Of a stretch of DNA of 64,000 bases, positions 1 to 29,037 are shown one piece after another. Source of the stretch: an uncultured bacterium (GTDB lineage Bacteria > Armatimonadota > UBA5829); assembly GCA_964494345.1 (NCBI GenBank), contig CAZBSI010000002.1, positions 113,830 to 177,829 of the forward strand. Direction: 5' to 3'. The position numbers and the translations under genes were made by a program. How positions within the stretch are numbered: position 1 is the first letter of the stretch; every line of letters starts with the position of its first letter. Below the pieces are notes generated by a model. The model was not told the DNA's origin. It did no database searches and saw only the letters and a list, made by a program, of their open reading frames with translations.

Positions 1-2509
1 GGACAGATACTATATCCGTTAATCTTATATAGCGAACGTATTCGTCGTCGACTTTTTTGATTGAGCTGATTCCTGTGACGATCACGTATTGCCACTGTTC
101 GTCAATCCAGAGTCGACCGGGCGTCTCACACAGCACGGGGGTTCCTGAGCCGTCGTCGATCGTGAATGTTGTCTGGCCGATATACGTGAACGCTCCCCAC
201 GCTTTTACGAGCAGGCCGATGTTGTTGAGCCCAGCGCCACCAGTCACACCTATTTGGCCGGTTCCCGCGGAAGGATTTCCTGAATCGCCGCCTCCCAGGG
301 ATTTATTCGTCAAGCCGAGCGGGTCGATCATAGCCCATTCACTTTGTGACATCAGCATCCCGACAAGGTAGCGTTCGCCGTTCGCATCGGTCTTCAACTT
401 GCCGACAACGTTGACTCCGTTGCCAACATATTGCCTGTGCCTGGGTCTTTCCACCCTTATGCCGCTCACCCGATTACTGGTCTCAACATAGAAAGAGCCC
501 AGCCAGGAGTCATCTATGCCCGGGACGATGATGCTTTTACTTGTGCGGGCCTCGGTCGGTTGACCTCCCCATGCGGCGGTCACTATAACATCATTGATTT
601 CGACCGCAGCGCCATCCGGGAGGAGTTTGGCAGAGCTTGTGCTGGCCGACACCGCCTCGAACGCCTCTTCTTCAAGTATAACAAGACCGCCACCATCACA
701 TGCTGCGTAGGTGTATCCGTCGGCAGTCGCGACTCCACGCAGACCCGAATAGTTGTTGTACTCCCCGACGCGCTTGGGGTTCTGGGGGTCCGAAACATCA
801 ATCACCAACACTCCATTGTGCTCAACGGCGACATAAAGCCTGCTTTCCACCACTGTAATGTCGGTTGCGACTCCAGAGACATCACATTCACCGACAAACG
901 TCGGATTGGCGGGATTGGATATATCTATGACCTTTAGATAGTTGTAGCCATCGCCGATATACGCGTAGTTGCCCGACACGGCAACGCTCAGGCAGAAGCC
1001 GTCGGTTTGATAGGTCCCTATCAGCAACGGACTCGCCGGGTTGGCGATATTTATAACCTTTAGACCACCATAGTAATCCGCCACATACGCATAAAGTCCG
1101 GATACGGCGATTTTGGTGGCGTAATTGCTCGTCGGAAGGGCGCCAGCAAGCGTAGGCAACGCAGGGTTGGCTATATTTAAAATCACCAAACCGTTATAAT
1201 CATCTGCCACATAGGCATAGTTGCCGACAACTGCGATATCCTGAGAATAGCCGTTTGTGTCGTAGTTACCGACCAGTGTCGGGGCGGCAGGGTCGGAAAT
1301 ATTTACTATTCTGACGCCTTCCTCGCTGCTTGCCACATAGGCATAGTTGCCTGAAACAGCGACGCCGTATCCTGGCAATACGTCCACACATACCCCAACT
1401 GGCCGTGGATTTTCAATATCCGAAATATCCACCACCTGCAGACCCGATTGCCTGTCTGCGACGTAGGCGTAATCACCCGATACGGCGACGTCCTGGGTTG
1501 CATTAAATACGCCATATCGCCCGGATTTTACTGGATTCTCCGGGTCTGTGATATTGATCGCCTGCAGTCCGCCTTCGTAGCAGCAGACATACGCATAGTC
1601 CCCTGCCAGCGCGACATAGACAGACCATCCGTCAGGGTCGATGCTGCTGGCTACCGTCGGATTTGCAGGGTTCGTAATGTCAATTATCTGCAATCCCTTT
1701 GAGCCGTAGGCCACGTAGGCGTAGTTTCCCCGGACAGTAAGCTGGTAGGTATATTCTACGACATTACAGTTTCCAACAACTGTCGGGGCGCTGAGATTAG
1801 CGATGTTTACCACATACATGCCATCGAAGTCGTCCAGCACATAGGCATAGTTGCCGGAAATTGAGACTGAGACTGCGTTAAAGTCGTCACAGTACCCGAC
1901 CAGAGTTGGATCTGCGGGGTCTGATATATCAAAAATCATAAGGCCGCCATAAAAATCGGCAACGAACGCGTGTGTTCCGGAGACCTTCACATCATAGGCG
2001 TAATAGGAGTCTTCATAAGCGCCTGCTAACGTCGGGTTTTGTGGGTCGGATATATCGATTATCTGGAATCCAGTGCCGAAGCAGGCAATATATGCGTAGT
2101 TCCCGGAAATATCGATGGCGTTCGCTGTATAATCGGTGCTTAACGACCCGACCAGAGTTGGATTTTCGGGATCAGATATGTCGAGTATCTGCAGGCCGGC
2201 ATAGGACGCCGCCATATATGCGTAGTCCCCTGAAATTGCCACGTCCTTTATTTGTTCTGGCAGCTTTTCGCTTCTCGCGATCTGCACTGGTTTTGATGGG
2301 TTGGTAACGTCCAAAGCCACAAGGCGTTCGCCCATAGCAGTCCAGGCAATGTCCCCTGAGACATTAACCGCGTTGCAGAAGCCGAAGAAGTCTGAGACCT
2401 CAGATAAAGAATAATACGTGGCCCCGTGCGCCACGCCTGCCCCGAATGCACAGGCAATTACGATTACCAGTGCAATTGAGGATAGAAACCGTGCTGGAAA
2501 TTTCCCCAT
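1..2509 (-). CDS. secreted LVIVD-repeat beta-propeller protein (5' end complete, 3' end runs off window start)
   Basis: Continuous minus-strand frame from ATG at 2509 (RBS GAGGTGG ~7 nt upstream) to position 1. It is absent from the ORF track because there is no stop inside the window. Signal peptide MGKFPARFLSSIALVIVIACAFGAGVAHG. More than 15 tandem ~42-aa repeats of the form SGNYAYVA..GLQIIDISDPxNPTLVG, diagnostic of LVIVD repeats. Confidence 0.7.
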   Translation of the reverse strand, partial: MGKFPARFLSSIALVIVIACAFGAGVAHGATYYSLSEVSDFFGFCNAVNVSGDIAWTAMGERLVALDVTNPSKPVQIARSEKLPEQIKDVAISGDYAYMAASYAGLQILDISDPENPTLVGSLSTDYTANAIDISGNYAYIACFGTGFQIIDISDPQNPTLAGAYEDSYYAYDVKVSGTHAFVADFYGGLMIFDISDPADPTLVGYCDDFNAVSVSISGNYAYVLDDFDGMYVVNIANLSAPTVVGNCNVVEYTYQLTVRGNYAYVAYGSKGLQIIDITNPANPTVASSIDPDGWSVYVALAGDYAYVCCYEGGLQAINITDPENPVKSGRYGVFNATQDVAVSGDYAYVADRQSGLQVVDISDIENPRPVGVCVDVLPGYGVAVSGNYAYVASSEEGVRIVNISDPAAPTLVGNYDTNGYSQDIAVVGNYAYVADDYNGLVILNIANPALPTLAGALPTSNYATKIAVSGLYAYVADYYGGLKVINIANPASPLLIGTYQTDGFCLSVAVSGNYAYIGDGYNYLKVIDISNPANPTFVGECDVSGVATDITVVESRLYVAVEHNGVLVIDVSDPQNPKRVGEYNNYSGLRGVATADGYTYAACDGGGLVILEEEAFEAVSASTSSAKLLPDGAAVEINDVIVTAAWGGQPTEARTSKSIIVPGIDDSWLGSFYVETSNRVSGIRVERPRHRQYVGNGVNVVGKLKTDANGERYLVGMLMSQSEWAMIDPLGLTNKSLGGGDSGNPSAGTGQIGVTGGAGLNNIGLLVKAWGAFTYIGQTTFTIDDGSGTPVLCETPGRLWIDEQWQYVIVTGISSIKKVDDEYVRYIRLTDIVSV

Positions 2510-2715
2510 ATCAACCACCTCTCATTGCTGGATGTCGGAGTTGTGAGTTGGCGGCAAGACGTTGGATGAAAAAGTCTGTTGCCAATGCTTGCCGCCTACG
2601 TATCCGGATGTAAACCCTAAATAATACTGGACACTGTCGCAATATAGCATGACAATTATCCATAGTCAATGACTACTATTTGAATAGCGTCGACTCCAAT
2701 CCGACGATCTTATGG

Positions 2716-3837: not shown

Positions 3838-3904
3838 AGCAACCACCCTCCTGGCGATATTATATCACGATGGGCAGGCTCTTACTCGCTGCCGCTTGAA
3901 ATGA

Positions 3905-4210
3905 CTGGAAGGGAAACGCGAAAGCGCGAAAGGGGCGAAAATCAGAAAATGCCAATAAAGTTTCAGTCGGACTTCGAACATCTGACTTCGGACATCGAAA
4001 AAAGCAGATTTCTCGCTGCGCTCGAAATGACGAGGGAGGGTGCTCGAAATGACAGGGGAAATCAAACGCGAAAGTGCGAAAGGGGCGAAAACCAGAAAAT
4101 GCCAGTAAATTTTCAGTCGGACATCGGATGCCTGACCTCGGACATCGAAAAAAGCAGATTTCTCGCTGCGCTCGAAATGACGAGGGAGGGGTGCTCGAAA
4201 TGACAGGGTT
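3905..4210 (+). repeat. two tandem ~150-bp units of a dispersed modular intergenic repeat (core GGACATCGAAAAAAGCAGATTTCTCGCTGCGCTCGAAATGAC)
   Basis: Units begin at ~3915 and ~4065 with AAACGCGAAAG(C/T)GCGAAAGGGGCGAAAA. Each carries the core followed by GAGGGAGGG(G)TGCTCGAAATGACAGGG. The same core recurs at 11725-11760, 13130-13175 and 26285-26320. Confidence 0.85.
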
Positions 4211-4236
4211 AGGCGGCTTTGTAAAACTACAACCGT

Positions 4237-4331
4237 GAACCGATAACCGAAAACCATCAACCGCCAACCGATAACCGATAACCGATAACCGACAACCGAT
4301 AACCGATAACCGATAACCGATAACCGACAAC
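4237..4331 (+). repeat. heptanucleotide tandem array (AACCGAT)n, ~13 copies
   Basis: aaccgtg aaccgat aaccgaa aaccatc aaccgcc then (aaccgat)x3 aaccgac (aaccgat)x4 aaccgac. It lies 85-180 nt upstream of the GH116 start, in a divergent promoter region. Confidence 0.9.
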
Positions 4332-4414
4332 TTCCTTCAGCAGGAAGGCGAGGTGTAGACGGAGAATTATGCGATAACATTTGCTCCATATTTTCAGGCG
4401 CGGAGGACGACGCA

Positions 4415-6928
4415 ATGGCTGACAGACGAGGCAAATTGTTCGTTATGGGTAAGCAGCGCAGCTTCACCGGCGACGCCCTAAAAGAAATCGCATTTCCACT
4501 GGGCGGGATCGGCTCTGGGACGGTGTCGCTGGGAGGTCGAGGCCAGCTTAGAGACTGGGAGATATTTAACCGTCCACAGAAAGGCAACACACTGCCTTAT
4601 ACTTTCCCTATGATTTATGCTAAGCCGGATGGCGGCGAGGCTGTCGCAAGGGTACTGGAATCGAAACTTCAGCCGCCGTTTATCGAATGGGGCGGGATGT
4701 CGCCGAACAGGCTATGCGGGCTGCCGAGGCTGAAAGAGGCGGAGTTTTATGGGGAATATCCATTTGCGCACGTCGATTTCCGAGATGCAGCACTTCCCGT
4801 CAAAGTCGAGCTTACCGCGTTTAATCCGATGATTCCTCTGAATGAGAAGGATTCCTCCATCCCCTGCGCTATTTTGACTTATAAAGTAACTAACACCGCT
4901 GCGAAGTCCGTCGACTGCTCCATCTGCTGGTCTCTGCATAACCCGGTTGGGGACAGGGAGAGAGTCAATGAGTTCGTAGATGCGGGGAGCTATCGCGGGG
5001 TCAAGATGATTTCGGCGCCATTAAAGCCGGAGGATCTGACCTATGGTTCGATGGCACTGGTGACAACTCATAAGACGGTATCGTGCCGTCAGCACTGGCC
5101 GGCTGAGGGTTGGTGGGATGCCGCTCAGGGGATTTGGGACGATTTCAAGGACGACGGTAATCTCAAAGGGGATACGCTGGATCAGAAGAACTCCGACATC
5201 GCCAGCCTTGCCGCGAAGTTTACCCTCAAGCAGGGTCAGAGCATGGAAGTGCCGTTTATATTCACCTGGTATTTCCCGAACAGGCATAACTATTGGAACA
5301 CCGAGCCTGAGGTAAAAGATGCCCGGCTGCGCAATCGATATGCGGACTGGTGGGAAGGAGCATGGGAGGTCGCGGGATACGTTGTCAATGAGCTGCCCAG
5401 ACTGGAAAAGCAAAGTCGTCTCTTCGGCGATGCTCTATATTCCAGCAGCCTGCCCGCAGTGGCGCTCGATGCGGCCGGGTCGAATATGTCGATTATGCGC
5501 ACACAGACCGGTTTGCTTCTCGACGACGACCGGTTCTACGGATTTGAGGGCTGCGGTGATCAATTCGGCTCCTGTCCTATGAACTGCACCCACGTCTGGA
5601 ACTATGAACAGGCGCTGGCGTACCTGTATCCGCGGTTGGAACGCACCATGCGACTGACGGATTTCACAAACAACGTCGAAGAAAACGGCAAAATGGCGTT
5701 TAGAAGCCTGATTCCGCTGGGGGATTATCTGTGGAAGTTTTACGCAGCCGCCGATGGACAGATGGGCTGCATTCTTAAATTATATAGAGAGTACCTGCTC
5801 AGTGGGGACGTAGAGTTTCTCAAAACGGTCTACCCAAACGCTCGCAAATCGCTCGAGTATGCGTGGAAGGAGTGGGACAAGGACGGGGACGGCGTGATGG
5901 AGGCTGTCCAGCACAACACCTACGACATAGAGTTTTACGGCGCAAACACGATGATGGGCACGCTGTATCTTGGCGCGCTGAAGGCTATGGAGAAAATCTC
6001 CCTTATCCTCGGCGAGCGCGCGTTTGCGGCAAAGTGCAAAACGTTATATGAAAGCGGCTATGAAAAGCACGTCGATAAGCTCTTTAACGGGGAGTATTTC
6101 GAGCAGGACTGCGGCCCGGATTCCGACCGCCGCTACCAGTTCGGCCCGGGCTGTCTCAGCGACCAGCTTCTGGGTCAGTGGTTCTGCGAGGTAGTGGGCC
6201 TCGGCCATACATTGCCGCAGGACAAGATCAAATCCGCCCTTTCTTCCATCTTCAAATATAACTGGAAAAGCGACTTGTCGGATCACGACAGCATCCAGCG
6301 AACCTACGCGCTCAACGACGAAGCCGGGCTGCTGCTGTGTTCGTGGCCGAAAGGGGGCAGGCCGCGATATCCGTTCACCTACGCCGACGAGGTCTGGACC
6401 GGGATAGAGTATCAGGTCGCTGCGCATCTGATTTATGAGGATCTCATTGAAGAGGGCCTGGCGATTGTAAAAGGCGTGCGGGATCGTCATGACGGTATCG
6501 CAAGAAACCCCTGGAACGAGTTCGAGTGCGGCAATCACTACGCCCGTGCGATGGCAAGCTGGTCGCTGCTGCTCGCGTTGTCTGGTTTTCATTGCAACAC
6601 CCACGATCGTTTCATCGCCTTCGCGCCGAAAGTCAACTTCGACGACTTCAAATGCTTCTATTCGACCGGAACCGGATGGGGAGTATTCTCACAGAAGTCT
6701 TCACCTGGTCAATTGGTCGCCGAAATCGGTGTGAGCTTTGGAGAGCTCGATATTCAAGACATACGGCTGGCCATACCGCACGGCGCTCGGTTTACGGATG
6801 TGAAGGTTTCCGAAGCCGGAAGCGGGTTCGGGGCGCATGCGCATACGGACGGCAAATACGCGGTCATAAGACTCAGCGAGCCGGTGAAAATAGGGGCTGG
6901 AGAATCGTTGAAGCTGGAGTTGAGTTAA
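4415..6928 (+). CDS. glycoside hydrolase family 116 (GBA2-type beta-glucosidase/glucosylceramidase-like)
   Basis: N-terminal FPLGGIGSGTVSLGGRGQLRDWEIFN motif typical of the GBA2 N-terminal domain. Length 837 aa. RBS GGAGGA 8 nt upstream of ATG 4415. Confidence 0.75.
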   Translation: MADRRGKLFVMGKQRSFTGDALKEIAFPLGGIGSGTVSLGGRGQLRDWEIFNRPQKGNTLPYTFPMIYAKPDGGEAVARVLESKLQPPFIEWGGMSPNRLCGLPRLKEAEFYGEYPFAHVDFRDAALPVKVELTAFNPMIPLNEKDSSIPCAILTYKVTNTAAKSVDCSICWSLHNPVGDRERVNEFVDAGSYRGVKMISAPLKPEDLTYGSMALVTTHKTVSCRQHWPAEGWWDAAQGIWDDFKDDGNLKGDTLDQKNSDIASLAAKFTLKQGQSMEVPFIFTWYFPNRHNYWNTEPEVKDARLRNRYADWWEGAWEVAGYVVNELPRLEKQSRLFGDALYSSSLPAVALDAAGSNMSIMRTQTGLLLDDDRFYGFEGCGDQFGSCPMNCTHVWNYEQALAYLYPRLERTMRLTDFTNNVEENGKMAFRSLIPLGDYLWKFYAAADGQMGCILKLYREYLLSGDVEFLKTVYPNARKSLEYAWKEWDKDGDGVMEAVQHNTYDIEFYGANTMMGTLYLGALKAMEKISLILGERAFAAKCKTLYESGYEKHVDKLFNGEYFEQDCGPDSDRRYQFGPGCLSDQLLGQWFCEVVGLGHTLPQDKIKSALSSIFKYNWKSDLSDHDSIQRTYALNDEAGLLLCSWPKGGRPRYPFTYADEVWTGIEYQVAAHLIYEDLIEEGLAIVKGVRDRHDGIARNPWNEFECGNHYARAMASWSLLLALSGFHCNTHDRFIAFAPKVNFDDFKCFYSTGTGWGVFSQKSSPGQLVAEIGVSFGELDIQDIRLAIPHGARFTDVKVSEAGSGFGAHAHTDGKYAVIRLSEPVKIGAGESLKLELS

Positions 6929-6938
6929 AATGACACAC

Positions 6939-6970
6939 AGGCCGGGCGTGCCCCGGCCTTTTATTATAAC
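6939..6970. terminator. bidirectional Rho-independent terminator between convergent GH116 and WYL-regulator genes
   Basis: AGGCCGGG-cgtgc-CCCGGCCT hairpin followed by TTTTATTATAA. A U-rich tract is also present on the opposite strand. Confidence 0.7.
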
Positions 6971-6971
6971 G

Positions 6972-7985
6972 CTACACCTCTTCCGGCAGGCTAAGAACTG
7001 CGCACTCCAGTGCGGGAAGCGCTGCTATATCACTCTGGACTAACATCGGTGGTGCGTCATATATCGCGGCCATTGCCGTTGCGTGGGTTCGGATTAAATC
7101 CCGCAGCACTGGCGGCTCCAGTACCTCGGCTTCCTTGCCGAAGCCGAGTATCCATATAGCGATTTCCTCGCATCCCGCGACTGTGGCCTCGAAGATTATC
7201 GAGCCATCGTCTTGCGGGTGGATGACCTGGGTGTGATGTCGCCGAGCCTCAGCCACCATCTCCGCAACTACCGGACTGAACCTAACGCGCACGACAGTCG
7301 GCTCACCACCCGCCCATGCTTCCCAACTGTATTTGAAATAGTCCTGCACCGAAAAGCTCTTGGGCACGTCAAACTCCTCCTCTGTCAAATGCGCTTCTCT
7401 GAACCTCAGCAGCTTGAACATCACCACTCTCTCGTGTTCGTGCGAATGAGCCATAAGATACCAGCTATGACGTCGAAAGACCAGCACATAGGGATCGATG
7501 AGATAGTTTTTAACCCTGTTGCTTTTCTGGGAGCGGTAGACGATCTTAAGTCGTTGACGATGGCCGATAGCTTTTTCGATGGTGCGCGGGATTTCAGGGT
7601 CGATGCTGCCCTGGGTGACAGTGAAACGAATGTCATATCCACACGCAAGCTCGTTTGAGAACTCCAGCGCACGGCCGGACGCGCAGTCTCTGATCTTCAG
7701 CCAGGCGGATTGCATCTGTGTGCGCAAGGGAGACACATCGCTGATCGACAGCGAGCGGATCGCCGTGTGTACGGCCAGCAACTCCTCTGCTGAGAGGTTA
7801 TGGTTCTGCGAATCCAGGCCTTCCTGCAGAAAATATCCCCCTTCAGCCGATACCACGGATACTCCGATGTCTGACGTAAGCTCGCCAAGCCACCTGTATA
7901 TGGTGCGCGGGGAGCGGCCAAGACTGGTCGAAAGTTCATCTATCGTGATGCCAGGCCGCGCACGGAGCAGTTCGATCATATCCAT
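6972..7985 (-). CDS. HTH-WYL-WCX transcriptional regulator (DriD/PafBC-like stand-alone WYL regulator)
   Basis: N-terminal DeoR-type HTH (IELLRARPGITIDELSTSLGRSPRTIYRWL) and a WYL domain (RHSWYLMAHSHEHERVVMFKLLRF), with a C-terminal extension. Start uncertain: ATG 7985, ATG 7979 or TTG 8006. Confidence 0.8.
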   Translation of the reverse strand: MDMIELLRARPGITIDELSTSLGRSPRTIYRWLGELTSDIGVSVVSAEGGYFLQEGLDSQNHNLSAEELLAVHTAIRSLSISDVSPLRTQMQSAWLKIRDCASGRALEFSNELACGYDIRFTVTQGSIDPEIPRTIEKAIGHRQRLKIVYRSQKSNRVKNYLIDPYVLVFRRHSWYLMAHSHEHERVVMFKLLRFREAHLTEEEFDVPKSFSVQDYFKYSWEAWAGGEPTVVRVRFSPVVAEMVAEARRHHTQVIHPQDDGSIIFEATVAGCEEIAIWILGFGKEAEVLEPPVLRDLIRTHATAMAAIYDAPPMLVQSDIAALPALECAVLSLPEEV

Positions 7986-8146
7986 CAGTAAAGCAGCTTT
8001 AGCCAATATGCAATCCCACTTGTATTTACAAAATGTGTTTGAGAATTAGTGATGCGGACTCGAAATCCCTTCTCTTGAATACGGAGGATAACATACGGGC
8101 GGACGCGAAGGTTTCACGTGGAATACTGCGTAAAGGAGACTGATAT

Positions 8147-9205
8147 ATGCATAAAATAGCGATCATCGGCGGAGATGGCACCGGCCCGGAAGTGGTCGTG
8201 GAGGGGCTCAAAGTCCTGCAGGCAGCCAGCCAGAAAACCGGGTTTACTTATGAAACCGTGGACTACGATTTTGGAGGGGAGAGATATCTCCGAACAGGAG
8301 AGATATTGCCGGATTCCGCAGTCGATGAAATGAAGAAATTCGACGCTATCTACCTGGGGGCGATCGGCCATCCGGACGTCAAACCGGGCATTTTGGAGAA
8401 GGGAATCCTGCTGACCCTGCGCTTTGCTTTGGATCAGTATGTAAACCTGCGTCCTGTAAAGCTCTACCCCGGCGTGGATACCCCGCTCAAAGACAAAGGC
8501 CCGGAGGATATCGACTACGTGGTGGTGCGTGAGAACACCGAGGGGTTGTATACCGGCGCTGGTGGCACGCTGAAGAAGGGAACGCCGGACGAAGTCGCTG
8601 TGCAGGAGTCGATCAATACCCGCAAGGGTGTCGAGCGATGTATTCGCTATGCTTTTGAGCTGTGCCGAAAGCGAAATCGGGACAAGAAGCTCACGCTGTG
8701 CGGCAAAACCAACGTTCTGACCTTCGCGTTTGACCTCTGGGAGAGGACTTTCTACGAAGTGGCCAAAGAGTACCCGGATATCACCCCGGATTATGCTCAC
8801 GTGGACGCCACTACTATGTGGATGGTCAAAAACCCGGAGTGGTTTGACTGCATCGTGACGGACAATATGTTTGGCGATATCATCACCGACCTTGGCGCGA
8901 TGACTCAGGGCGGCATGGGTATAGCGGCAGGCGGAAACATCAACCCGGACGGGGTTTCGATGTTCGAGCCAATCGGCGGATCTGCTCCTAAATACACCGG
9001 TATGAACGTTATCAACCCCCTTGCAGCCATCGGCGCGCTACAGATGATGCTGGATACGCTCGGCGAAACTGAGGCCGCTGATCTCGTCGACAAGGCGATA
9101 GCCTATGTCACCGGCAGCAAACTTAAGAGCATGAGCGCGGGCAAGATGGGCTATACCACCTCCGAGGTTGGGGATATGGTCGCCCAGTTCGTCGCTGACG
9201 CTTAG
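8147..9205 (+). CDS. 3-isopropylmalate / tartrate dehydrogenase family (isocitrate-isopropylmalate DH superfamily)
   Basis: [26 protein letters not shown] and GDIITD motifs. Length 352 aa. RBS AAGGAGA. Confidence 0.75.
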
Positions 9206-9266
9206 GTTCATAAGCCAACGGCTAAAAACAATAAGCCGGGGTACTTTTGTGGTATTTGCTATCAGG

Positions 9267-9305
9267 CGCCGGGATGTCAGTCTGTCCCGGCGCTTGAGGT
9301 TTAGC
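9267..9305 (+). terminator. possible intrinsic terminator downstream of dehydrogenase gene
   Basis: CGCCGGGA-N10-TCCCGGCG hairpin followed by CTTGAGGTTTAGCTT, a weak U tract. Confidence 0.35.
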
Positions 9306-9350
9306 TTAAGCCAGATCACTGCGATTTGCACATCTTAACGGAGCACGGTC

Positions 9351-10319
9351 GTGATCAAGACGTATTTGTTTTCTGGTGAAAACACAACAGAAGATGTCAG
9401 TATTGCGGACTGGCGTTCGCTGACCGAAGGCGATGATAAGCTGCTGTGGGTGGATGCGAGGTCTATAACTCAACACGAACTTGAGCTGCTTCAGAGCACC
9501 TTTGACCTGCATGATCTGGCTGTTGCGCCGATGCTGGGCCGTTATCGCAGGCCGCATCTATATCAATTCGCCGACCATTTTTGTGTAAATCTGGTGATGA
9601 TCCGAAGTTCTCGATCGGACCATGGCATAAAGCCGGTCGAATTGCACGTTTTTGTCGGGAGTAAATTCATTCTGACCACCACCAAAGACCCAGCCAGCCC
9701 ACCCGCTGACAGTGCCATTGAGGAGTATAAAAACGCCCCTCAGCTCGCCGCAAAAGGGTCGATGCATGCGCTTTTTTTGCTTACCGAAGACCTCGTTGAG
9801 ACGTACTATCCGCTGGTCGACAAGCTCGACGACGATGCGGACAAGATTGAGGATATCCTGCTGGATCACGCCGATGAGGCGTCACTGCGTCGCAATTTCG
9901 CATTGAAACATAAGGTCTTCGAGCTGCGAAAACTACTCGGCCCGCAGCGCGACATATTAAACGACCTCTCTCGCAGGGATTTCGGGTTCATCGACACGCG
10001 AAGCCAGGTGTATTTTCAGGATATCTACAATCGGATGATACGGCTGTTCGATATCCTTGACACGGTGCGGGAGATACTCAGCGGCAATCTGGAAATATAT
10101 CTGTCTACCGTATCAAACAGACTCAATGAAATAGTGAAAATTCTCACTGTGTTCGCCACCGTTTTGGGAGTGGCGACGTTTGTGACGGGATTTTATGGCA
10201 TGAACTTCCGGCATATGCCCGGTCTGGAGTCGCCTCACGCCTTTCGTAACGTCCTGATCTTTATAGTCGTGATCACCATCGCTATGCTGCTGTGGTTCCG
10301 CCGCAAGAAATGGGTATAG
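9351..10319 (+). CDS. corA: magnesium/cobalt transporter CorA
   Basis: C-terminal two TM helices with the GFYGMNF (GMN) signature. GTG start. Confidence 0.85.
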   Translation: MIKTYLFSGENTTEDVSIADWRSLTEGDDKLLWVDARSITQHELELLQSTFDLHDLAVAPMLGRYRRPHLYQFADHFCVNLVMIRSSRSDHGIKPVELHVFVGSKFILTTTKDPASPPADSAIEEYKNAPQLAAKGSMHALFLLTEDLVETYYPLVDKLDDDADKIEDILLDHADEASLRRNFALKHKVFELRKLLGPQRDILNDLSRRDFGFIDTRSQVYFQDIYNRMIRLFDILDTVREILSGNLEIYLSTVSNRLNEIVKILTVFATVLGVATFVTGFYGMNFRHMPGLESPHAFRNVLIFIVVITIAMLLWFRRKKWV

Positions 10320-10321
10320 CG

Positions 10322-11002
10322 ATGGCGATTTATGCAATCTCGGATTTACATCTTTCGCTTTCAGGCGACAAACCTATGGATATGTTCGGCGAAATCTGGC
10401 GGGACCATGCTGTCAGAATCGCTGAAAACTGGGACTCCACGGTGGCTGAAGGTGATACGGTTCTGCTGGCAGGGGATCATTCGTGGGCGCTGCGATTCGA
10501 GGAGGCCAAAGCCGATCTCGATTTCATCGCCGCAAGACCGGGCCGAAAGATCCTGATTCGCGGAAATCACGATTATTGGTGGCGACGAGAGGCGACCAAT
10601 CGCATACAGAAGCAACTGCCGGAGAATATGACCCTGCTGCACGGGCGGGGAATAGTGGTCGACGGGGTCGGGATTGCGGGCACGCGGGGATGGCGGCTGG
10701 AGGAAGACGACCCGGAGACGACAGACCATAAAGTGATGAAACGGGAGCTTGCATATCTGCAGCGCGCATTAAGCGAGATACCTGCGAATGTGTCGCAAAA
10801 AATAGCGATGTTGCACTACCCGCCCTTTGATATACACCTTGATCCCAATGAATTCGCAGACGTTTTGCAGGCGAATAGCGTAGACATCCTCGTCTACGGC
10901 CACATACACACAGGGCTTTACCTGCAGGGCAATATCGACGGCATAAAATATATATTGGTCTCAGCCGATCACGTCGATATGCGGCCGGTGAGGGTTATTT
11001 AG
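10322..11002 (+). CDS. metallophosphoesterase (calcineurin-like phosphoesterase)
   Basis: ISDLHLS, GDHSW and IRGNHDYWW motifs. Start at ATG 10322 (MAIYAISDLH), just after the corA stop. Confidence 0.7.
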   Translation: MAIYAISDLHLSLSGDKPMDMFGEIWRDHAVRIAENWDSTVAEGDTVLLAGDHSWALRFEEAKADLDFIAARPGRKILIRGNHDYWWRREATNRIQKQLPENMTLLHGRGIVVDGVGIAGTRGWRLEEDDPETTDHKVMKRELAYLQRALSEIPANVSQKIAMLHYPPFDIHLDPNEFADVLQANSVDILVYGHIHTGLYLQGNIDGIKYILVSADHVDMRPVRVI

Positions 11003-11642
11003 GGAGTTCTTCCATTGCGACGACTCGTGTCGGGGAGCCGTCCAAGCCTGCAAAATTCATTGGCAACGCTGCGATAAACACCCTGTCCGCCGTGACTTCG
11101 TGCATATTTGCAACCGTTTCCAGCACCACCATTCCCGTCACCAGCAGCGCTTTGTGAACCTGCTGATCAAGCGACAAATGCACTGACGGCTGTTCTATGC
11201 CCAATAATTTAACGTTTCGTGCAGTCAACCAAGCCGCTGCGCCCTCGCTTATGCCGGGGAACTCGGTGAAAAACTCCGGCTGGCCCCATCTTTTGCCCCA
11301 TCCGGTTTTAAGCAGCAGCCTTGCCGATTTGCCGACGCGGTTTTCGAAGCGATCAAGGTCTGCGGAGATTATCTGGGTGCGCGGGGCCAAATCGCCCAAA
11401 TCCAGCACCTCCGCCCACCCCACGAGTGCGTCGAGGTCATAACTATCGACTCCGCGACTGTCGTGCATCACGTGGTGAGGGCTGTCGATATGCGTGCCTG
11501 TGTGGGTTCCGAAGCAAACTCGCGTGTTGTTGTAGCCGGATTGCGAGATAGTCGTGGTCTGAGAAAACTCGACTTCAGGGTCACCAGGCCACACGGGCAT
11601 AGGCGCCGTTATTTTATAGCTCAGGTCAATTATCCGCTTCAA
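10995..11642 (-). CDS. cyclase family protein / kynurenine formamidase-like
   Basis: HTGTHIDSPHH and the surrounding sequence match the putative cyclase/arylformamidase fold. Confidence 0.65.
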   Translation of the reverse strand: MKRIIDLSYKITAPMPVWPGDPEVEFSQTTTISQSGYNNTRVCFGTHTGTHIDSPHHVMHDSRGVDSYDLDALVGWAEVLDLGDLAPRTQIISADLDRFENRVGKSARLLLKTGWGKRWGQPEFFTEFPGISEGAAAWLTARNVKLLGIEQPSVHLSLDQQVHKALLVTGMVVLETVANMHEVTADRVFIAALPMNFAGLDGSPTRVVAMEELPK

Positions 11643-11724
11643 TGGCTGCTCCCTTGCAATTATATATGGAGTATATCCAAATCAAATCGGATACACAACA
11701 TTTACCGCATACGCCATCAAATAT

Positions 11725-11807
11725 GTCATTTCGAACGCAGTGAGAAATCTGCTTTTTCGGTTGTCGGTTGACGGTTGACGGTTGTCGGTTGACGGTTGTC
11801 GGTTGAA
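11725..11807 (-). repeat. copy of the dispersed repeat core (reverse orientation) with adjacent (GGTTGAC/GGTTGTC)x7 heptamer array
   Basis: tgtcatttcgaacgcagtgagaaatctgctttttcg is the reverse complement of the core, followed by cggttgt/cggttga x7. Intergenic between the divergent cyclase and WbsX-like genes. Confidence 0.85.
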
Positions 11808-11887
11808 TATCCGGCAGCTTCCTACTTTTCAGCCTGTAAGATATAATGCATACCAACACGGATAAATTAAGGTTAAGGGTATAAACG

Positions 11888-13030
11888 ATGATGACCAAAC
11901 CACAAATCGCAGTATACTATTTCCCACAGTATCACCCCGACCCACGAAACGACGTCTGGCACGGGAAAGGCTGGACTGAGTGGGAGTTGATGAAATGTGC
12001 TCGGCCACGTTTTGAGGGTCACCGGCAGCCGAAGGTTCCGGCTTGGGGATACTTCGACGAGTCCGACCCAAAATGGGCCGCCAAAGAAATCGACCTGGCA
12101 GCGGACAGCGGCATCGACGCATTTATTTACGATTGGTACTACTACGAAGATGGCCCGTTTCTGCAGGACGGTTTGGACAAGGGCTTTCTGCAGGCGGATA
12201 ATCGCGACCGCATTAAGTTCGCCCTGATGTGGGCTAATCACGATTGGCTGGATATCCACCCGATGAAGTCGCACGGCACGCCTCCGCTGCTGGCGTCCGG
12301 AAAGGTGACGCGGGAGGCCTTTGATAGAGCTTGTGATCACGTCATTGAGCGATACTTTTCCCAAGCTAATTATTGGACCATCGACGGAGAACCGTATTTT
12401 TCAATCTACGATATAGGTGCGTTGATTGAGGGTCTTGGCGGGTTTGCAGAGACGCGTGACGCGCTTAAAAGCTTTAGAGATAAGACCGTGGCAGCGGGGC
12501 ACACCGGGCTGCATCTTAATTGCGTGGTTTGGGGAATCAAGGTTCTGCAGGGCGAGAAAGGCGTCGAGGAACCTGAGCGCGTGATCCCACAGTTGGGCTT
12601 TACCAGCGTCGGCAGCTATGTATGGGCGCACTATTATTATCCGAACTGGGGAGGGTTCCCGTTGGGGAGTATGCGTGGTGCAGCGGATAAAAATTATGAG
12701 GTTTGGGAGGAACTCGCCGCGCAGTATAGCCTGCCGTATCATCCGAATGTAACTATGGGCTGGGACCCAAGCCCCCGCACAATCCAAAGCGACGTCTTCG
12801 AGCCGAGAGGCTACACGTGGACCTCGATTCTGCAAGACGACCCTGGTATTTTCGAAGAATCGCTGCTGCGAGCCAAAGAGTTCGTGATGAGATTGGATTG
12901 CAAGCAAAAAATTGTCACCATAAACGCCTGGAACGAATGGACCGAAGGCAGCTACCTCCTCCCGGACACCGACCACGGCACCGCCTATACCGACGCGATT
13001 AAGGTTGTGTTTGGGGAGAAGGAAGATTAG
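11888..13030 (+). CDS. WbsX-like glycosyltransferase family protein
   Basis: N-terminal IAVYYFPQYHPDPRNDVWHGKGWTEW matches the characteristic WbsX-family (PF14307-like) start motif. Confidence 0.7.
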   Translation: MMTKPQIAVYYFPQYHPDPRNDVWHGKGWTEWELMKCARPRFEGHRQPKVPAWGYFDESDPKWAAKEIDLAADSGIDAFIYDWYYYEDGPFLQDGLDKGFLQADNRDRIKFALMWANHDWLDIHPMKSHGTPPLLASGKVTREAFDRACDHVIERYFSQANYWTIDGEPYFSIYDIGALIEGLGGFAETRDALKSFRDKTVAAGHTGLHLNCVVWGIKVLQGEKGVEEPERVIPQLGFTSVGSYVWAHYYYPNWGGFPLGSMRGAADKNYEVWEELAAQYSLPYHPNVTMGWDPSPRTIQSDVFEPRGYTWTSILQDDPGIFEESLLRAKEFVMRLDCKQKIVTINAWNEWTEGSYLLPDTDHGTAYTDAIKVVFGEKED

Positions 13031-13270
13031 AAAACGCGAAATCGCGAAAAGAGCGAAAAACAGAAATAACGATATTGTATCGTAATTAGCGAGCCGTAGA
13101 GGGCTTGATCGGACCTCCGACCTCGGATATCGGACATCGGAAAAAGCAGATTTCTCGCTGCGCTCGAAATGACGAAGGGGGCCGCTCGAAATGACGAAGG
13201 GGGCGCTCAAATGACGGTGGGTAGGTGCTCGAAATGACAAGGGGTGGGCACTCGAAATGACGTGGGTGGT
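13031..13270 (+). repeat. copy of the dispersed modular repeat: 5' GAAAACGCGAAATCGCGAAAAGAGCGAAAAACAGAAA module, core, and ~5 tandem ~21-nt GCTCGAAATGACGAAGGGGG units
   Basis: Direct reading; it has the same module order as the 3905-4210 copy. Intergenic between the convergent WbsX-like and Prs-like genes. Confidence 0.85.
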
Positions 13271-13458
13271 TTAAGTAGTGGCCGTGCCTCTGTCCCGGCC
13301 ACAACCAGCTTCCAAGGAGAGACTGTCCGAGGCGGAGATCGGACACTACCGTTTGGAAGTTAGAAGTTGGAGATTGGAGGTTGGCATTGGTTATGAGGCG
13401 GCGATTCGGAGATCATTACCTATCATGGGATGACTACGCCGCCAGGCTGGTTTGGTCC

Positions 13459-19477: not shown

Positions 19478-19563
19478 GCCGGAGTGGCGGAATGGCAGAC
19501 GCAGTGGTCTCAAAAACCACCGAGGGCAACCTCATGTCGGTTCGACTCCGACCTCCGGCACCA
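19478..19563 (+). tRNA. tRNA-Leu (anticodon CAA), class II with long variable arm, CCA encoded
   Basis: Acceptor stem GCCGGAG/CTCCGGC, D-stem GCG/CGC, anticodon stem GTGGT/ACCAC with loop CTCAAAA, variable arm GAGGG-CAA-CCTC, T-arm GTCGG-TTCGACT-CCGAC, discriminator A, then CCA. Confidence 0.9.
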
Positions 19564-26051: not shown

Positions 26052-26194
26052 CGCTGATTCACTCCTTTGATGTTACAATTCTCCCGCAGTATTATCCCGT
26101 GTAGTGACTTTTGTGTCAAATGCACAGGTGGAGATCAGCCCATCGGTCACGCTCGGCCGCCCGCAGATGGGTGGTGATCTCCGAATCACCACCC

Positions 26195-26345
26195 CACAAC
26201 CCGTCACTCGTCATTTCAAACGCCTTTCACTCGTCATTTCAAGCGCCCCCTTCGTCATTTCGAGCGCCCCCCTTCGTCATTTCGAGCGCAGCGAGAAATC
26301 TGCTTTTTCCGATGCCATATATCCGAACTTCGAAGCCCGACCTCA
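26195..26345 (-). repeat. copy of dispersed modular repeat (reverse orientation): core plus ~4 tandem ~21-nt units
   Basis: Reverse complement reads GGATATATGGCATCGGAAAAAGCAGATTTCTCGCTGCGCTCGAAATGACGAAGGGGGGCGCTCGAAATGACGAAGGGGGCGCTTGAAATGACGAGTGAAAGGCGTTTGAAATGACGAGTGACGG. Confidence 0.85.
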
Positions 26346-28272: not shown

Positions 28273-29037
28273 ATGAGAGAATTGCGTTTGCGACCGCTGT
28301 GTTATGTGATAATGGCTGCAGTGCTGACGATCTCGATCGGATTGCCGATCCTGGCGGCTGATGCCGCGCAGACTAATGTGAACCTTGACCTGAAAGATAC
28401 TGATGTCAAGGCGGCCATAGAGGCCCTTTTTCGAGGCACGGGAAGGAACTACTCCATAGATTCCAATGTCTCGGGCATCGTTTCGGCGCTGTCTATTAAG
28501 GATGTTCCGTTCGAAACTGCGCTCAGGAGTCTTACGAAATCGGCCGGGTTGGTATATCGACAGGACGGCGGAGTATATCTTATCAGCGTTAAGCCAGATA
28601 CCTCAAATCTCGTCGCTGCGTCTATGCCGATATCAGAACTGCCGTCGGTGGATGCTACTACCGATGAGCCTGAGATTAAAATAGAAAAGATTCCGCTGAA
28701 TAACGTCAGCGCCAACGAGATATTGTCGATTCTCGGCGGTACGGATTCCAATAGAGCCTACGGCGGCTACGGTATGGGCGGCTGGAATTATGGCATGGGA
28801 ATGGGCGGTCGTTATGGCGGCTCTGGCGGATACGGTAGTTACGGCGGCAATTACGGTGGCAACTATGGCGGTTATGGTAACTACGGCAGCTACGGAAACC
28901 GCAGCTATGGCGGCAACTTTGGTGGTTATGGCAGCAACTACGGCGGTTATGGCAGCAACTATGGCGGCTACAACAACCGTTCGTCAGGTTACGGTGGGTC
29001 TTACGGTGGATCTTATGGCGGCTACCGAGGTTGGTAG
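28273..29037 (+). CDS. secreted protein with secretin-N/STN-like domain and C-terminal Gly/Tyr-rich low-complexity tail
   Basis: N-terminal signal/anchor. Residues ~35-105 (NVNLDLKDTDVKAAIEALF...GLVYRQDGGVYLI) resemble the secretin/TonB short N-terminal domain. The C-terminal ~95 aa is almost pure G/Y/S/N (GGYGSYGGNYGGNYGGYGNYGSYG...). Confidence 0.55.
   Translation: MRELRLRPLCYVIMAAVLTISIGLPILAADAAQTNVNLDLKDTDVKAAIEALFRGTGRNYSIDSNVSGIVSALSIKDVPFETALRSLTKSAGLVYRQDGGVYLISVKPDTSNLVAASMPISELPSVDATTDEPEIKIEKIPLNNVSANEILSILGGTDSNRAYGGYGMGGWNYGMGMGGRYGGSGGYGSYGGNYGGNYGGYGNYGSYGNRSYGGNFGGYGSNYGGYGSNYGGYNNRSSGYGGSYGGSYGGYRGW

What the first reader, a model, noticed from the sequence alone, without database searches (positions are those of the whole stretch)
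3905..4210. Novel modular dispersed intergenic repeat family: four loci in 64 kb share a ~45-nt core
The core GGACATCG(A/G)AAAAAGCAGATTTCTCGCTGCGCTCGAAATGAC occurs at 3985-4030, 4135-4180, 11725-11760 (reverse complement), 13130-13175 and 26285-26320 (reverse complement).

The copies are modular:
- Loci 1 and 3 carry a 5' purine-rich module (GAAACGCGAAAGCGCGAAAGGGGCGAAAAnCAGAAA).
- All copies carry the core.
- Loci 1, 3 and 4 have 3' tandem ~21-nt units (G/A)GGGG(G)CGCTCGAAATGAC in 2, 5 and 4 copies.
- Loci 1 and 2 have heptamer arrays.

All four loci are intergenic (two divergent-promoter, one convergent, one tandem). None contains an ORF. The apparent ORFs with recurring peptides such as RAQREICFFRCP are repeat artefacts.

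The repeats are not CRISPR: the tandem units are contiguous with no spacers. At this density (~1 per 16 kb) the genome could hold hundreds of copies. Candidate identities are a REP/BIME-like element, a MITE, or a family of structured sRNA or regulatory sites. I do not recognise it as any named element.
Basis: seen in the sequence. Interest (0 to 1): 0.6.

Follow-up and report, generated by a model that had tools for sequence, protein, structure and literature searches.

The report
CGTC-tagged REP hairpin repeats in mosaics
The repeats are real and non-coding, but they are not a new kind of element: they are a previously uncatalogued variant of the published "CGTC-tagged" REP hairpin repeats (the kind that includes Neisseria dRS3/NIME), and the same 28-base unit turns up in at least seven bacterial phyla.

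Summary
All claimed core copies, tandem ~21-nt units, heptamer arrays and purine-rich modules exist within about 10 nt of the stated coordinates, far above chance.

Read on the opposite strand, the core is a small hairpin: (C/T)GTC-ATTTC-GA-NC-GNA-GN'-GA-GAAAT-CTGCTTTT.
- Five of its 7 pairs show compensatory changes.
- The tandem G.A/A.G internal loop is invariant.

The exact 28-mer occurs in Armatimonadota, Acidobacteriota, Gamma- and Betaproteobacteria, Bacteroidota, Desulfobacterota, KSB1 and Nitrospinota. It is often an inverted doublet with the tags facing outward. It is absent from plasmid and phage collections.

By its features it belongs to the CGTC-tagged REP super-family of Di Nocera et al. 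2013: an unpaired CGTC/TGTC tag, a stem starting with AT, a short tail, dimers, and no flanking transposase. Known relatives are Neisseria dRS3/NIME and Rickettsia RPE. In the window it sits in BIME/NIME-like mosaics that also hold a GTAG-tagged REP.

How it spreads is unproven. No Y1/RAYT gene flanks any copy that I could examine.

New points are the G.A-containing architecture, the additional phyla, and strictly tag-side tandem half-unit arrays. Interest is moderate.

The parts
3893..3905 (-). Degenerate half-unit (GTCATTTCAAGCG), the remnant of a third copy of the 150-nt tandem unit.
3914..3949 (+). Purine-rich module, copy 1 (AAACGCGAAAGCGCGAAAGGGGCGAAAATCAGAAAA).
   Evidence: (D10)
3967..3997 (+). 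Heptamer-like tract (CGGACNT-type, 14-nt period) next to the tail of unit 1.
3999..4032 (-). Complete CGTC-tagged hairpin unit: CGTCATTTCGAGCGCAGCGAGAAATCTGCTTTTT.
   Evidence: structure
4041..4053 (-). Half-unit (5' arm GTCATTTCGAGCA) on the tag side of the unit at 3999-4032.
4064..4099 (+). Purine-rich module, copy 2.
4149..4182 (-). Complete CGTC-tagged hairpin unit (second copy of the 150-nt tandem duplication at 3914-4208).
4192..4204 (-). Half-unit on the tag side of the unit at 4149-4182.
4238..4331 (+). Heptamer array, AACCGAT x 13.4.
11724..11757 (+). Complete unit with a TGTC tag and an A:T inner pair: TGTCATTTCGAACGCAGTGAGAAATCTGCTTTTT.
11757..11806 (+). Heptamer array, TCGGTTG x 7, directly 3' of the tail.
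13032..13067 (+). Purine-rich module, copy 3.
13108..13141 (+). Heptamer tract, ATCGGAC x 4.9, next to the tail.
13141..13174 (-). Complete CGTC-tagged hairpin unit.
13183..13261 (-). Array of four tag-side half-units (about 22-nt period, G-rich spacers on the + strand).
13275..13300 (+). A different palindromic unit: a GTAG-tagged REP (GTAGTGGCCGTGCCTCTGTCCCGGCC) abutting the half-unit array. It makes the locus a BIME-like mosaic.
   Evidence: compare the subclass 2.7 REPs in Table S1 of PMC6006769
26204..26275 (+). Array of three tag-side half-units (21-23-nt period).
26275..26308 (+). Complete CGTC-tagged hairpin unit.
26309..26341 (+). Heptamer-like tract next to the tail. It is homologous to 13109-13140 (inverted repeat I1, 90% complementary over 99 nt).

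Best explanation
The four loci are BIME/NIME-like mosaics. They are built around a small non-autonomous palindromic repeat of the CGTC-tagged REP super-family.

It folds as a 5-bp outer stem, an invariant tandem sheared-type G.A/A.G internal loop, a 2-bp inner stem and a 3-nt loop.

Shown:
- The base pairing is maintained by compensatory change.
- The tag, the G.A pairs and the tail are conserved as sequence.
- Units occur singly, as tags-outward inverted doublets (REPIN-like), and with strictly tag-side tandem half-units.
- They are chromosomal, intergenic and non-coding.
- They are conserved at orthologous sites while spacers and flanks drift.
- The module content around them differs between genomes about 93% identical over the syntenic stretch.

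Inferred:
- The unit acts as a single-stranded DNA hairpin that is copied or maintained in trans by an HUH/Y1 (RAYT-type) nuclease encoded elsewhere in the genome. This has been proposed for the very similar Neisseria unit ATTCCCGCGCAGGCGGGAATC.
- Adjacent short-period arrays (half-units, heptamers) grow by slippage at this stalling-prone structure.
- Effects on neighbouring genes are secondary.
For: Presence and structure:
- The repeats are far above chance.
- Hairpin: 91% of cells are paired, 5 of 7 pairs have changes on both sides, 0 of 500 shuffles reach the observed value, and slid controls give 10-57%.
- Among generic-pattern matches whose outer arms are not TTTC/GAAA, 33 of 72 are fully complementary, against about 2% expected by my arithmetic.
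- GA/GA is present in 150 of 152 instances when only the flanking pairs are required.
- Tag, stem and tail: 4 of 5 window units carry CGTC and 1 carries TGTC, all stems start with AT, and the tail TGCTTTT is conserved whatever the loop.

Distribution:
- The exact 28-mer is present in at least seven phyla, including Luteimonas isolates and single-contig long MAGs.
- Tags-outward doublets are seen.
- The arms are identical at an orthologous site in three Acidobacteriaceae species and in two Luteimonas species, while the spacers or flanks diverge.
- Mosaic turnover against the syntenic relative L016/L012.
- No match in plasmids or phages, and 1 hit in 2.9 million viral contigs.

Literature:
- Definition of CGTC REPs, including 'no dedicated transposase', dimers, and dRS3/RPE membership: PMC3733652.
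- NIME mosaics: PMC1797815.
- Neisseria REPIN master sequence and its decay when the RAYT is frameshifted: bioRxiv 10.1101/2021.07.10.451892.
- Class 3 TnpA-Y1 genes are flanked by hairpins with the same stem/GA-GA/2-bp/G..A-loop architecture: PMC6006769 Table S1.
Against: - No Y1/RAYT gene lies in the window or next to any unit in 92 loci of up to 8 kb each.
- The one RAYT found (L027:4529-5062, Pfam Y1_Tnp) is flanked by GTAG-tagged REPs, not by this unit, although that MAG holds at least 13 loci with the unit.
- None of 80 metagenomic E. coli-type RAYT loci is flanked by it. This is a weak test, because only the closest relatives of E. coli RayT were kept.
- Di Nocera et al. found no transposase flanked by CGTC repeats.
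- Near-identity across phyla is unlike classical species-specific REPs.
- Nearest-neighbour folding energies are no better than shuffles. These models may not capture GNA loops or tandem G.A pairs.
- The consensus figure for the four published CGTC families could not be read, so family-level placement rests on the text description.
Confidence: 0.6

Rival explanations
1. The unit works mainly as RNA. The hairpin followed by CUGCUUUU would act as a weak intrinsic terminator, a 3'-end stabiliser or another post-transcriptional element, and its spread would be a by-product.
For: - A T-run follows the hairpin in most copies.
- In same-direction gene pairs the hairpin strand is co-oriented with the genes 30 times against 14 (crude gene calls).
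- Di Nocera et al. argue that many REPs act as RNA.
Against: - In the window two loci lie between divergent genes and one is antisense to both neighbours.
- No unit scores as terminator-like.
- Four non-pairing bases separate the stem from the T-run.
- RNA folding z-scores are about 0.
- There is no excess of G-T over A-C in stem positions (4 against 9).
- The alternative GCAG/CTGC hairpin does not covary.
Confidence: 0.17
2. [quoted passage not shown] This was proposed for dRS3, which an IS110/Piv-type phage integrase targets. The 21-23-bp half-unit arrays would then be iteron-like binding arrays on one face of the helix.
For: - The half-unit period is about two helical turns.
- The tag, G.A positions and tail are conserved as sequence.
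- A synteny break with the relative falls exactly inside locus 3.
- The dRS3 recombinase hypothesis is set out in PMC1797815.
Against: - Compensatory changes in both stems imply intrastrand pairing rather than base-specific duplex recognition.
- No recombinase or other protein family recurs near the copies.
Confidence: 0.1
3. The doublets are classical MITEs, deletion derivatives of a DDE-transposase insertion sequence, and the 28-nt unit is their terminal inverted repeat.
For: In Proteobacteria and one uncultured lineage the unit forms 75-120-bp elements with perfect terminal inverted repeats TGTCATTTCG...CGAAATGACA.
Against: - No target-site duplications are visible at the doublet ends.
- Single units are common, and heterodimers with non-complementary arms occur in Acidobacteria.
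- Each arm is itself a covarying hairpin.
- No transposase lies nearby.
- The unit is absent from plasmids and phages.
Confidence: 0.05

Closest known systems
CGTC-tagged REP super-family (Di Nocera, De Gregorio and Rocco 2013, BMC Genomics 14:522)
   Same: - An unpaired CGTC tag (or TGTC) at one end.
- A stem whose first two positions are A-T pairs.
- A short unpaired tail at the other end.
- 20-40-nt palindromic units in intergenic DNA.
- Homo- and heterodimers with tags outward.
- Sequences similar across phyla.
- No flanking transposase.
   Different: - The nine stem positions include an invariant tandem G.A/A.G.
- The loop is 3 nt (mostly GNA) instead of 4-5.
- The tail is CTG(CTTTT) instead of CCA.
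- It is found in phyla not listed in that paper as carrying CGTC repeats (Armatimonadota, Acidobacteriota, Nitrospinota, KSB1, Desulfobacterota).
- Tag-side tandem half-unit arrays are not mentioned in the text of that paper.
Neisseria dRS3 / NIME arrays (equal to CGTC-1; REPIN master sequence ATTCCCGCGCAGGCGGGAATC)
   Same: - Near-identical outer stem and centre: compare the variant ATTCCGAGCGCAGCGAGGAATC found here.
- Hairpins interleaved with other repeat families in dynamic intergenic mosaics that differ between close relatives.
   Different: - dRS3 has a perfect 8-bp stem.
- NIME arrays are longer.
- A Group 2 RAYT link and phage integration into dRS3 are reported for Neisseria and are untested here.
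E. coli REP/BIME and Pseudomonas REPIN-RAYT systems (GTAG-tagged)
   Same: - A tagged hairpin, inverted doublets and mosaic clusters.
- Non-coding, chromosomal and vertically retained.
- A GTAG-tagged REP is part of locus 3 in the window.
   Different: - The tag is CGTC, not GT[AG]G.
- No RAYT is flanked by this unit in any DNA examined.
- The unit sequence is shared across phyla, whereas GTAG REPs are species-specific.
Hairpins flanking class 3 TnpA-Y1 genes (Quentin et al. 2018, e.g. CCGAG-CCGC-GA-CC-GTAA-GG-GA-GCGG)
   Same: - The same architecture: a 4-5-bp stem, tandem GA/GA, a 2-bp stem, and a short loop that starts with G and ends with A.
- Hundreds of copies in Acidobacteria.
   Different: - A different foot (CnGA against CGTC) and different stem sequences.
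- Those flank a Y1 gene, which was not seen for this unit.

Membership tests
CGTC-tagged REP super-family | An unpaired terminal motif fitting CGTC (TGTC or CCTC allowed) directly next to the stem. | tested here: met
   Four of 5 window units start with CGTC and 1 with TGTC. Across the loci GTC is fixed by the search pattern, and the preceding base is T in 78%.
CGTC-tagged REP super-family | A palindromic stem of 8-9 positions whose first two positions are complementary A-T pairs. | tested here: met
   ATTTCGAGC / GCGAGAAAT gives nine positions starting A-T, T-A. Seven are Watson-Crick pairs with covariation. Two are invariant G.A, a departure from the perfect stems described.
CGTC-tagged REP super-family | A loop of 4-5 nt and a short unpaired tail, consensus CCA (descriptive of the four published families). 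| tested here: not met
   The loop is 3 nt: GCA, GAA or GTA in 30 of 45 distinct units. The tail is CTGC(TTTT). The unit therefore does not fit any of the four families as described in the text. The consensus figure could not be read.
CGTC-tagged REP super-family | Frequent inverted dimers (homo- and heterodimers) with tags outward. | tested here: met
   Doublets occur in Luteimonas, Betaproteobacteria and Acidobacteriaceae. The tags-outward order of the published dimers is inferred from the peptide order SFLRKQES...LDSRFRGND in Additional file 4.
CGTC-tagged REP super-family | No transposase gene flanked by the repeats. | tested here: met
   No recurrent neighbouring protein and no Y1 gene flanked by the unit.
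REPIN-RAYT system | A single-copy RAYT (Y1 HUH) gene flanked by the same REP/REPIN. | tested here: inconclusive
   Not found in the window, in 92 loci or in 80 RAYT loci. No complete genome could be searched.
REPIN-RAYT system | Two inverted REPs separated by a variable spacer, with conserved arms. | tested here: met
   In the window itself the units are single or tandem, not doublets.
BIME / NIME mosaic element | Clusters that combine palindromic units with other recurrent motifs, and that vary between related genomes. | tested here: met
   The loci combine the unit, half-units, heptamers, the purine-rich module, a GTAG REP and GATCTCCGAATC hairpins. Module content differs from syntenic L016 and L012.
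MITE (DDE transposon derivative) | Terminal inverted repeats plus target-site duplication. | tested here: not met
   No duplicated flanks at the doublet ends.
Intrinsic terminator | A G+C-rich stem followed within 0-2 nt by a T-run, downstream of a co-oriented gene. | tested here: not met
   The units are not called by the scan. The basal stem is A+T-rich and a 4-nt gap precedes the T-run. Orientation is inconsistent in the window.
CRISPR array | Direct repeats separated by unique spacers of similar length. | tested here: not met
   The half-units are separated by 8-10-nt G-rich linkers that resemble each other.
Any Rfam family | A match to a curated covariance model. | tested here: not met
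   Only one tRNA reaches gathering score in the window. Nothing at E<=10 in 3850-4400.

The most novel reading that the evidence does not exclude
CGTC-type hairpins may not be propagated by a dedicated transposase at all. They may instead be recognised by a conserved host DNA-replication, repair or RNA-processing factor.

That would explain three observations:
- Essentially the same 28-nt hairpin, with an invariant tandem G.A and a GNA loop, persists in at least seven phyla.
- Its arms stay identical at orthologous sites while flanks drift.
- Partial copies accumulate only on the tag side. This is the signature of a directional, nick- or stall-primed copying process that has not been described.
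Probability: 0.12. Interest if true: 0.7.

Novelty: new variant of a known kind. Interest (0 to 1): 0.38.

Why it matters
CGTC-tagged REPs are the large REP super-family for which no mobilising enzyme is agreed. Di Nocera et al. found no dedicated transposase, while Bertels and Rainey tie the Neisseria unit to a RAYT.

This variant has a clean structural signature, and it occurs both in cultured Luteimonas and in many uncultured phyla. That gives:
- a concrete oligonucleotide substrate for biochemical tests;
- a wide comparative set for asking which gene co-varies with copy number.

Practically, these units and their half-unit arrays generate spurious ORFs with ARND-type peptides. They also coincide with a synteny break, so they matter for annotation and assembly of environmental genomes.

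Tried and rejected
- **Rfam.** Gathering-score and E<=10 scans found nothing.
- **Literal sequence search in papers.** Only two unrelated hits.
- **blastn against plasmids and phages.** No match. The viral contig scan gave one hit, not followed up.
- **Folding energy.** DNA and RNA values are no better than shuffles.
- **Alternative hairpin GCAG/CTGC** (terminator-like). Rejected because the tail stays TGCTTTT whatever the loop.
- **Terminator and promoter scan.** The units are not called.
- **Neighbour-protein clustering.** Only orthologous neighbours recur.
- **IS200 bait written from memory.** The single weak hit in L001 was the shadow of a HIT-family gene.
- **HUH/Y motif regular expression.** Nothing found.
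- **E. coli RayT as bait.** It found a real RAYT in L027, but that gene is flanked by GTAG REPs.
- **The search for homologous proteins with RayT.** It returned only enterobacterial proteins and was of no use.
- **Metagenome RAYT loci.** None of 80 is flanked by the unit, but the 80 kept were the closest to E. coli RayT.
- **G-T against A-C wobble counts** to pick the folded strand. No asymmetry.
- **Unit orientation along the 3.05-Mb relative's contig.** It shows blocks (-, +, -), but the copy list is truncated, so no replichore conclusion was drawn.

Full report
**1. Observation**

None of 100 shuffles gave a match. A diverged copy lies at 11725-11765(-).

The 12-mer GCTCGAAATGAC occurs 13 times against 0.33 expected, and only in the four loci. 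Tandem Repeats Finder recovers four features:
- the 150-nt duplication at 3914-4208;
- the ~22-nt arrays at 13160-13269 and 26208-26289;
- the heptamer array at 4238-4331;
- the heptamer array at 11757-11806.

The flanking genes are ordinary metabolic and glycan genes: Fe-ADH, GH116, cyclase, WbsX, PRTase, DegT and GH123. ORFs crossing the repeats have no Pfam match.

**2. Anatomy**

The informative strand is the complement of the one quoted. On it every complete unit in the window reads (C/T)GTCATTTCGA-N-CGCAG-N'-GAGAAATCTGCTTTTT. Its parts are:
- a 5-bp outer stem ATTTC/GAAAT;
- GA opposite GA;
- a 2-bp inner stem;
- a 3-nt loop.

The three N/N' combinations in the exact-match set are G:C, A:T and C:G.

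A generic pattern (GTCA-N4-GA-N5-32-GA-N4-TC) was run on the window and 92 related loci. It found 247 sites, of which 208 have fully complementary N4 arms. Leaving out the TTTC/GAAA arms used to fetch the loci, 33 of 72 are fully complementary, against about 2% expected by my arithmetic. The arms include TTCC/GGAA, TCCC/GGGA, CTCC/GGAG, CCCC/GGGG and TCTC/GAGA.

On 45 distinct 25-nt units:
- 91% of cells pair;
- 5 of 7 pairs show changes on both sides;
- no shuffle out of 500 reaches the observed covariation;
- slid registers give 10-57% pairing.

When only the flanking pairs are required, the internal dinucleotides are GA/GA in 150 of 152 instances. They are never replaced by Watson-Crick pairs. 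The loop is GCA, GAA or GTA in 30 of 45 distinct units. The 3' tail TGCTTTT is conserved whatever the loop, so the alternative GCAG/CTGC hairpin proposed by the energy model is not supported.

Nearest-neighbour energies are unremarkable, with z-scores of about 0. The evidence for the fold is therefore comparative, not thermodynamic.

**3. Distribution**

The 92 stretches come from these groups:
- Armatimonadota, including a 3.05-Mb single-contig MAG with 14 loci;
- Acidobacteriota;
- Gammaproteobacteria, including the isolates Luteimonas marina FR1330 and L. saliphila SJ-9;
- Betaproteobacteria;
- Bacteroidota;
- Desulfobulbaceae;
- KSB1;
- Nitrospinota.

In Proteobacteria and Acidobacteria the unit usually forms inverted doublets with the tags outward and a 18-35-nt spacer. 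Some are homodimers. Others are heterodimers whose arms cannot pair with each other, although each arm keeps its own hairpin.

At one orthologous site in three Acidobacteriaceae species, and at another in two Luteimonas species, the arms are identical while the spacers or immediate flanks diverge or carry indels. The unit is absent from 72,556 plasmids and 50,697 phage records, and occurs once in 2.9 million viral contigs.

**4. Mosaic context and turnover**

L016, from the Armatimonadota MAG JBMNES01, is syntenic with window 6713-13174 at 88.5-93.4% identity. L012 continues from 13275 but lies 120 kb away in that genome, so synteny breaks inside locus 3.

At locus 2 both genomes keep the unit. 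The relative, however, has 129 nt of other hairpin modules where the window has only heptamers. At locus 3 the window has four half-units and a GTAG-tagged REP where the relative has a heptamer array. L012 shows the same flanks joined without the unit.

Of 162 fully paired units, 24 carry 1-4 tandem half-units. A half-unit is the tag plus the 5' arm plus a C-rich linker, at 21-23-nt spacing. They are always on the tag side and never on the tail side, and they occur in several phyla. Heptamer periodicity after the tail is specific to Armatimonadota (19 of 42 units against 1 of 120).

**5. Comparison with what is known**

Di Nocera et al. 2013 define a CGTC-tagged REP super-family. Its features are:
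[quoted passage not shown] - short unpaired tails;
- frequent homo- and heterodimers;
- no transposase gene flanked by them.

Their CGTC-1 equals Neisseria dRS3 (ATTCCCN8GGGAAT), the hairpin of the NIME mosaics. It also equals Rickettsia RPE-6. The peptides they list for in-frame copies (VIPAKAGI, SFPRKRES...RFRGND) back-translate to GTCATTCCCGCGAAAGCGGGAATC (my back-translation).

Bertels and Rainey give ATTCCCGCGCAGGCGGGAATC as the Neisseria REPIN master sequence. They link its maintenance to a Group 2 RAYT. The TTCC variant found here, ATTCCGAGCGCAGCGAGGAATC, differs from it mainly by the G.A pairs.

Independently, Quentin et al. 2018 list hairpins flanking class 3 TnpA-Y1 genes. These have the same architecture of stem, GA/GA, 2-bp stem and G..A loop.

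The window's unit therefore meets the defining features of the CGTC super-family. It does not fit the loop and tail description of its four families. The authors themselves note that units with unpaired residues may have escaped their search.

**6. Test of the transposase link**

- No protein family recurs next to the units.
- Motif and bait searches found one genuine RAYT, L027:4529-5062 (Y1_Tnp 23.7 bits; HUH DHLHLLV; Y motif YTHANPV). It is flanked by GTAG-tagged REPs, not by this unit, in a MAG that holds at least 13 loci with the unit.
- Eighty metagenomic E. coli-type RAYT loci are not flanked by it either.

This agrees with Di Nocera's 'no dedicated transposase'. It leaves the RAYT model untested for this variant, because no complete genome could be searched.

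**7. Mechanism**

I commit to the following reading. The unit is a non-autonomous REP-type single-strand hairpin, kept and occasionally copied in trans by an HUH/Y1-type enzyme. Slippage-prone short arrays accrete next to it.

The rivals are primary RNA function, a duplex protein or recombinase site, and a DDE-type MITE. They are weaker for these reasons:
- Orientation is inconsistent and the units are not terminator-like.
- Covariation argues against pure duplex recognition.
- There are no target-site duplications.

The classification is well supported. The mobilisation step is inference from related systems.

**8. Verdict**

This is a real, ordinary-in-kind repeat. It is a new, structurally distinctive variant of CGTC-tagged REPs in BIME/NIME-like mosaics, with a wider phylogenetic range than previously listed. 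It also has an unexplained polar half-unit array. Interest is moderate.

Noticed in passing
window 13275-13300 (+): A canonical GTAG-tagged REP (GTAGTGGCCGTGCCTCTGTCCCGGCC) abuts the half-unit array. Similar GT[AG]G-tagged hairpins follow the unit's tag at about 7-10 nt in several Armatimonadota loci (L001, L029, L058, L085, L088). This suggests a recurrent composite of two REP types.
   Followed up: partly
window 26166-26201 and 13389-13424: A third hairpin module (GGTGGTGATCTCCGAATCACCACC type, inverted repeat I11) recurs near the units here and in L008, L012, L016 and L055. It is often preceded by GTCAT or followed by CTATC.
   Followed up: no
window 13174-13275 against L016 and L012: Synteny with the Armatimonadota MAG JBMNES010000001.1 breaks inside repeat locus 3. 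The left side maps to about 782 kb and the right side to about 902 kb of that contig. This is possibly a rearrangement mediated by the repeats.
   Followed up: partly
L008-L087 (positions on JBMNES010000001.1): Units lie mostly on the - strand from 0.1 to 1.5 Mb, on the + strand from 1.6 to 1.9 Mb, and on the - strand from 2.8 to 2.9 Mb.
   Followed up: partly
L027 4250-5300: A RAYT gene (177 aa, Y1_Tnp) is flanked on both sides by GTAG-tagged REPs nested inside TTTCGGGATTT...AAATCCCGAAA inverted repeats, two tandem copies downstream. It looks like a textbook REPtron in an uncultured bacterium that also carries many CGTC-type doublets.
   Followed up: partly
window 1-2521 (-): The 126-nt periodic DNA repeats come from a gene that runs off the window start. 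It encodes a protein of more than 840 aa with at least 11 LVIVD beta-propeller repeats (Pfam PF08309, E = 7e-137).
   Followed up: yes
window 28273-29037 (+): A 254-aa protein has an STN (secretin/TonB N-terminal) domain and a C-terminal Gly/Tyr/Asn-rich low-complexity tail. The tail accounts for the 12- and 21-nt tandem repeats at 28839-29015.
   Followed up: partly
window 19478-19563 (+): tRNA-Leu(CAA), the only RNA gene detected in the window.
   Followed up: yes
L093 3937-3964: This is the single viral-contig hit to the 28-mer (IMGVR_UViG_3300006805_000180). It could be a prophage-host junction or a real phage-borne copy.
   Followed up: no
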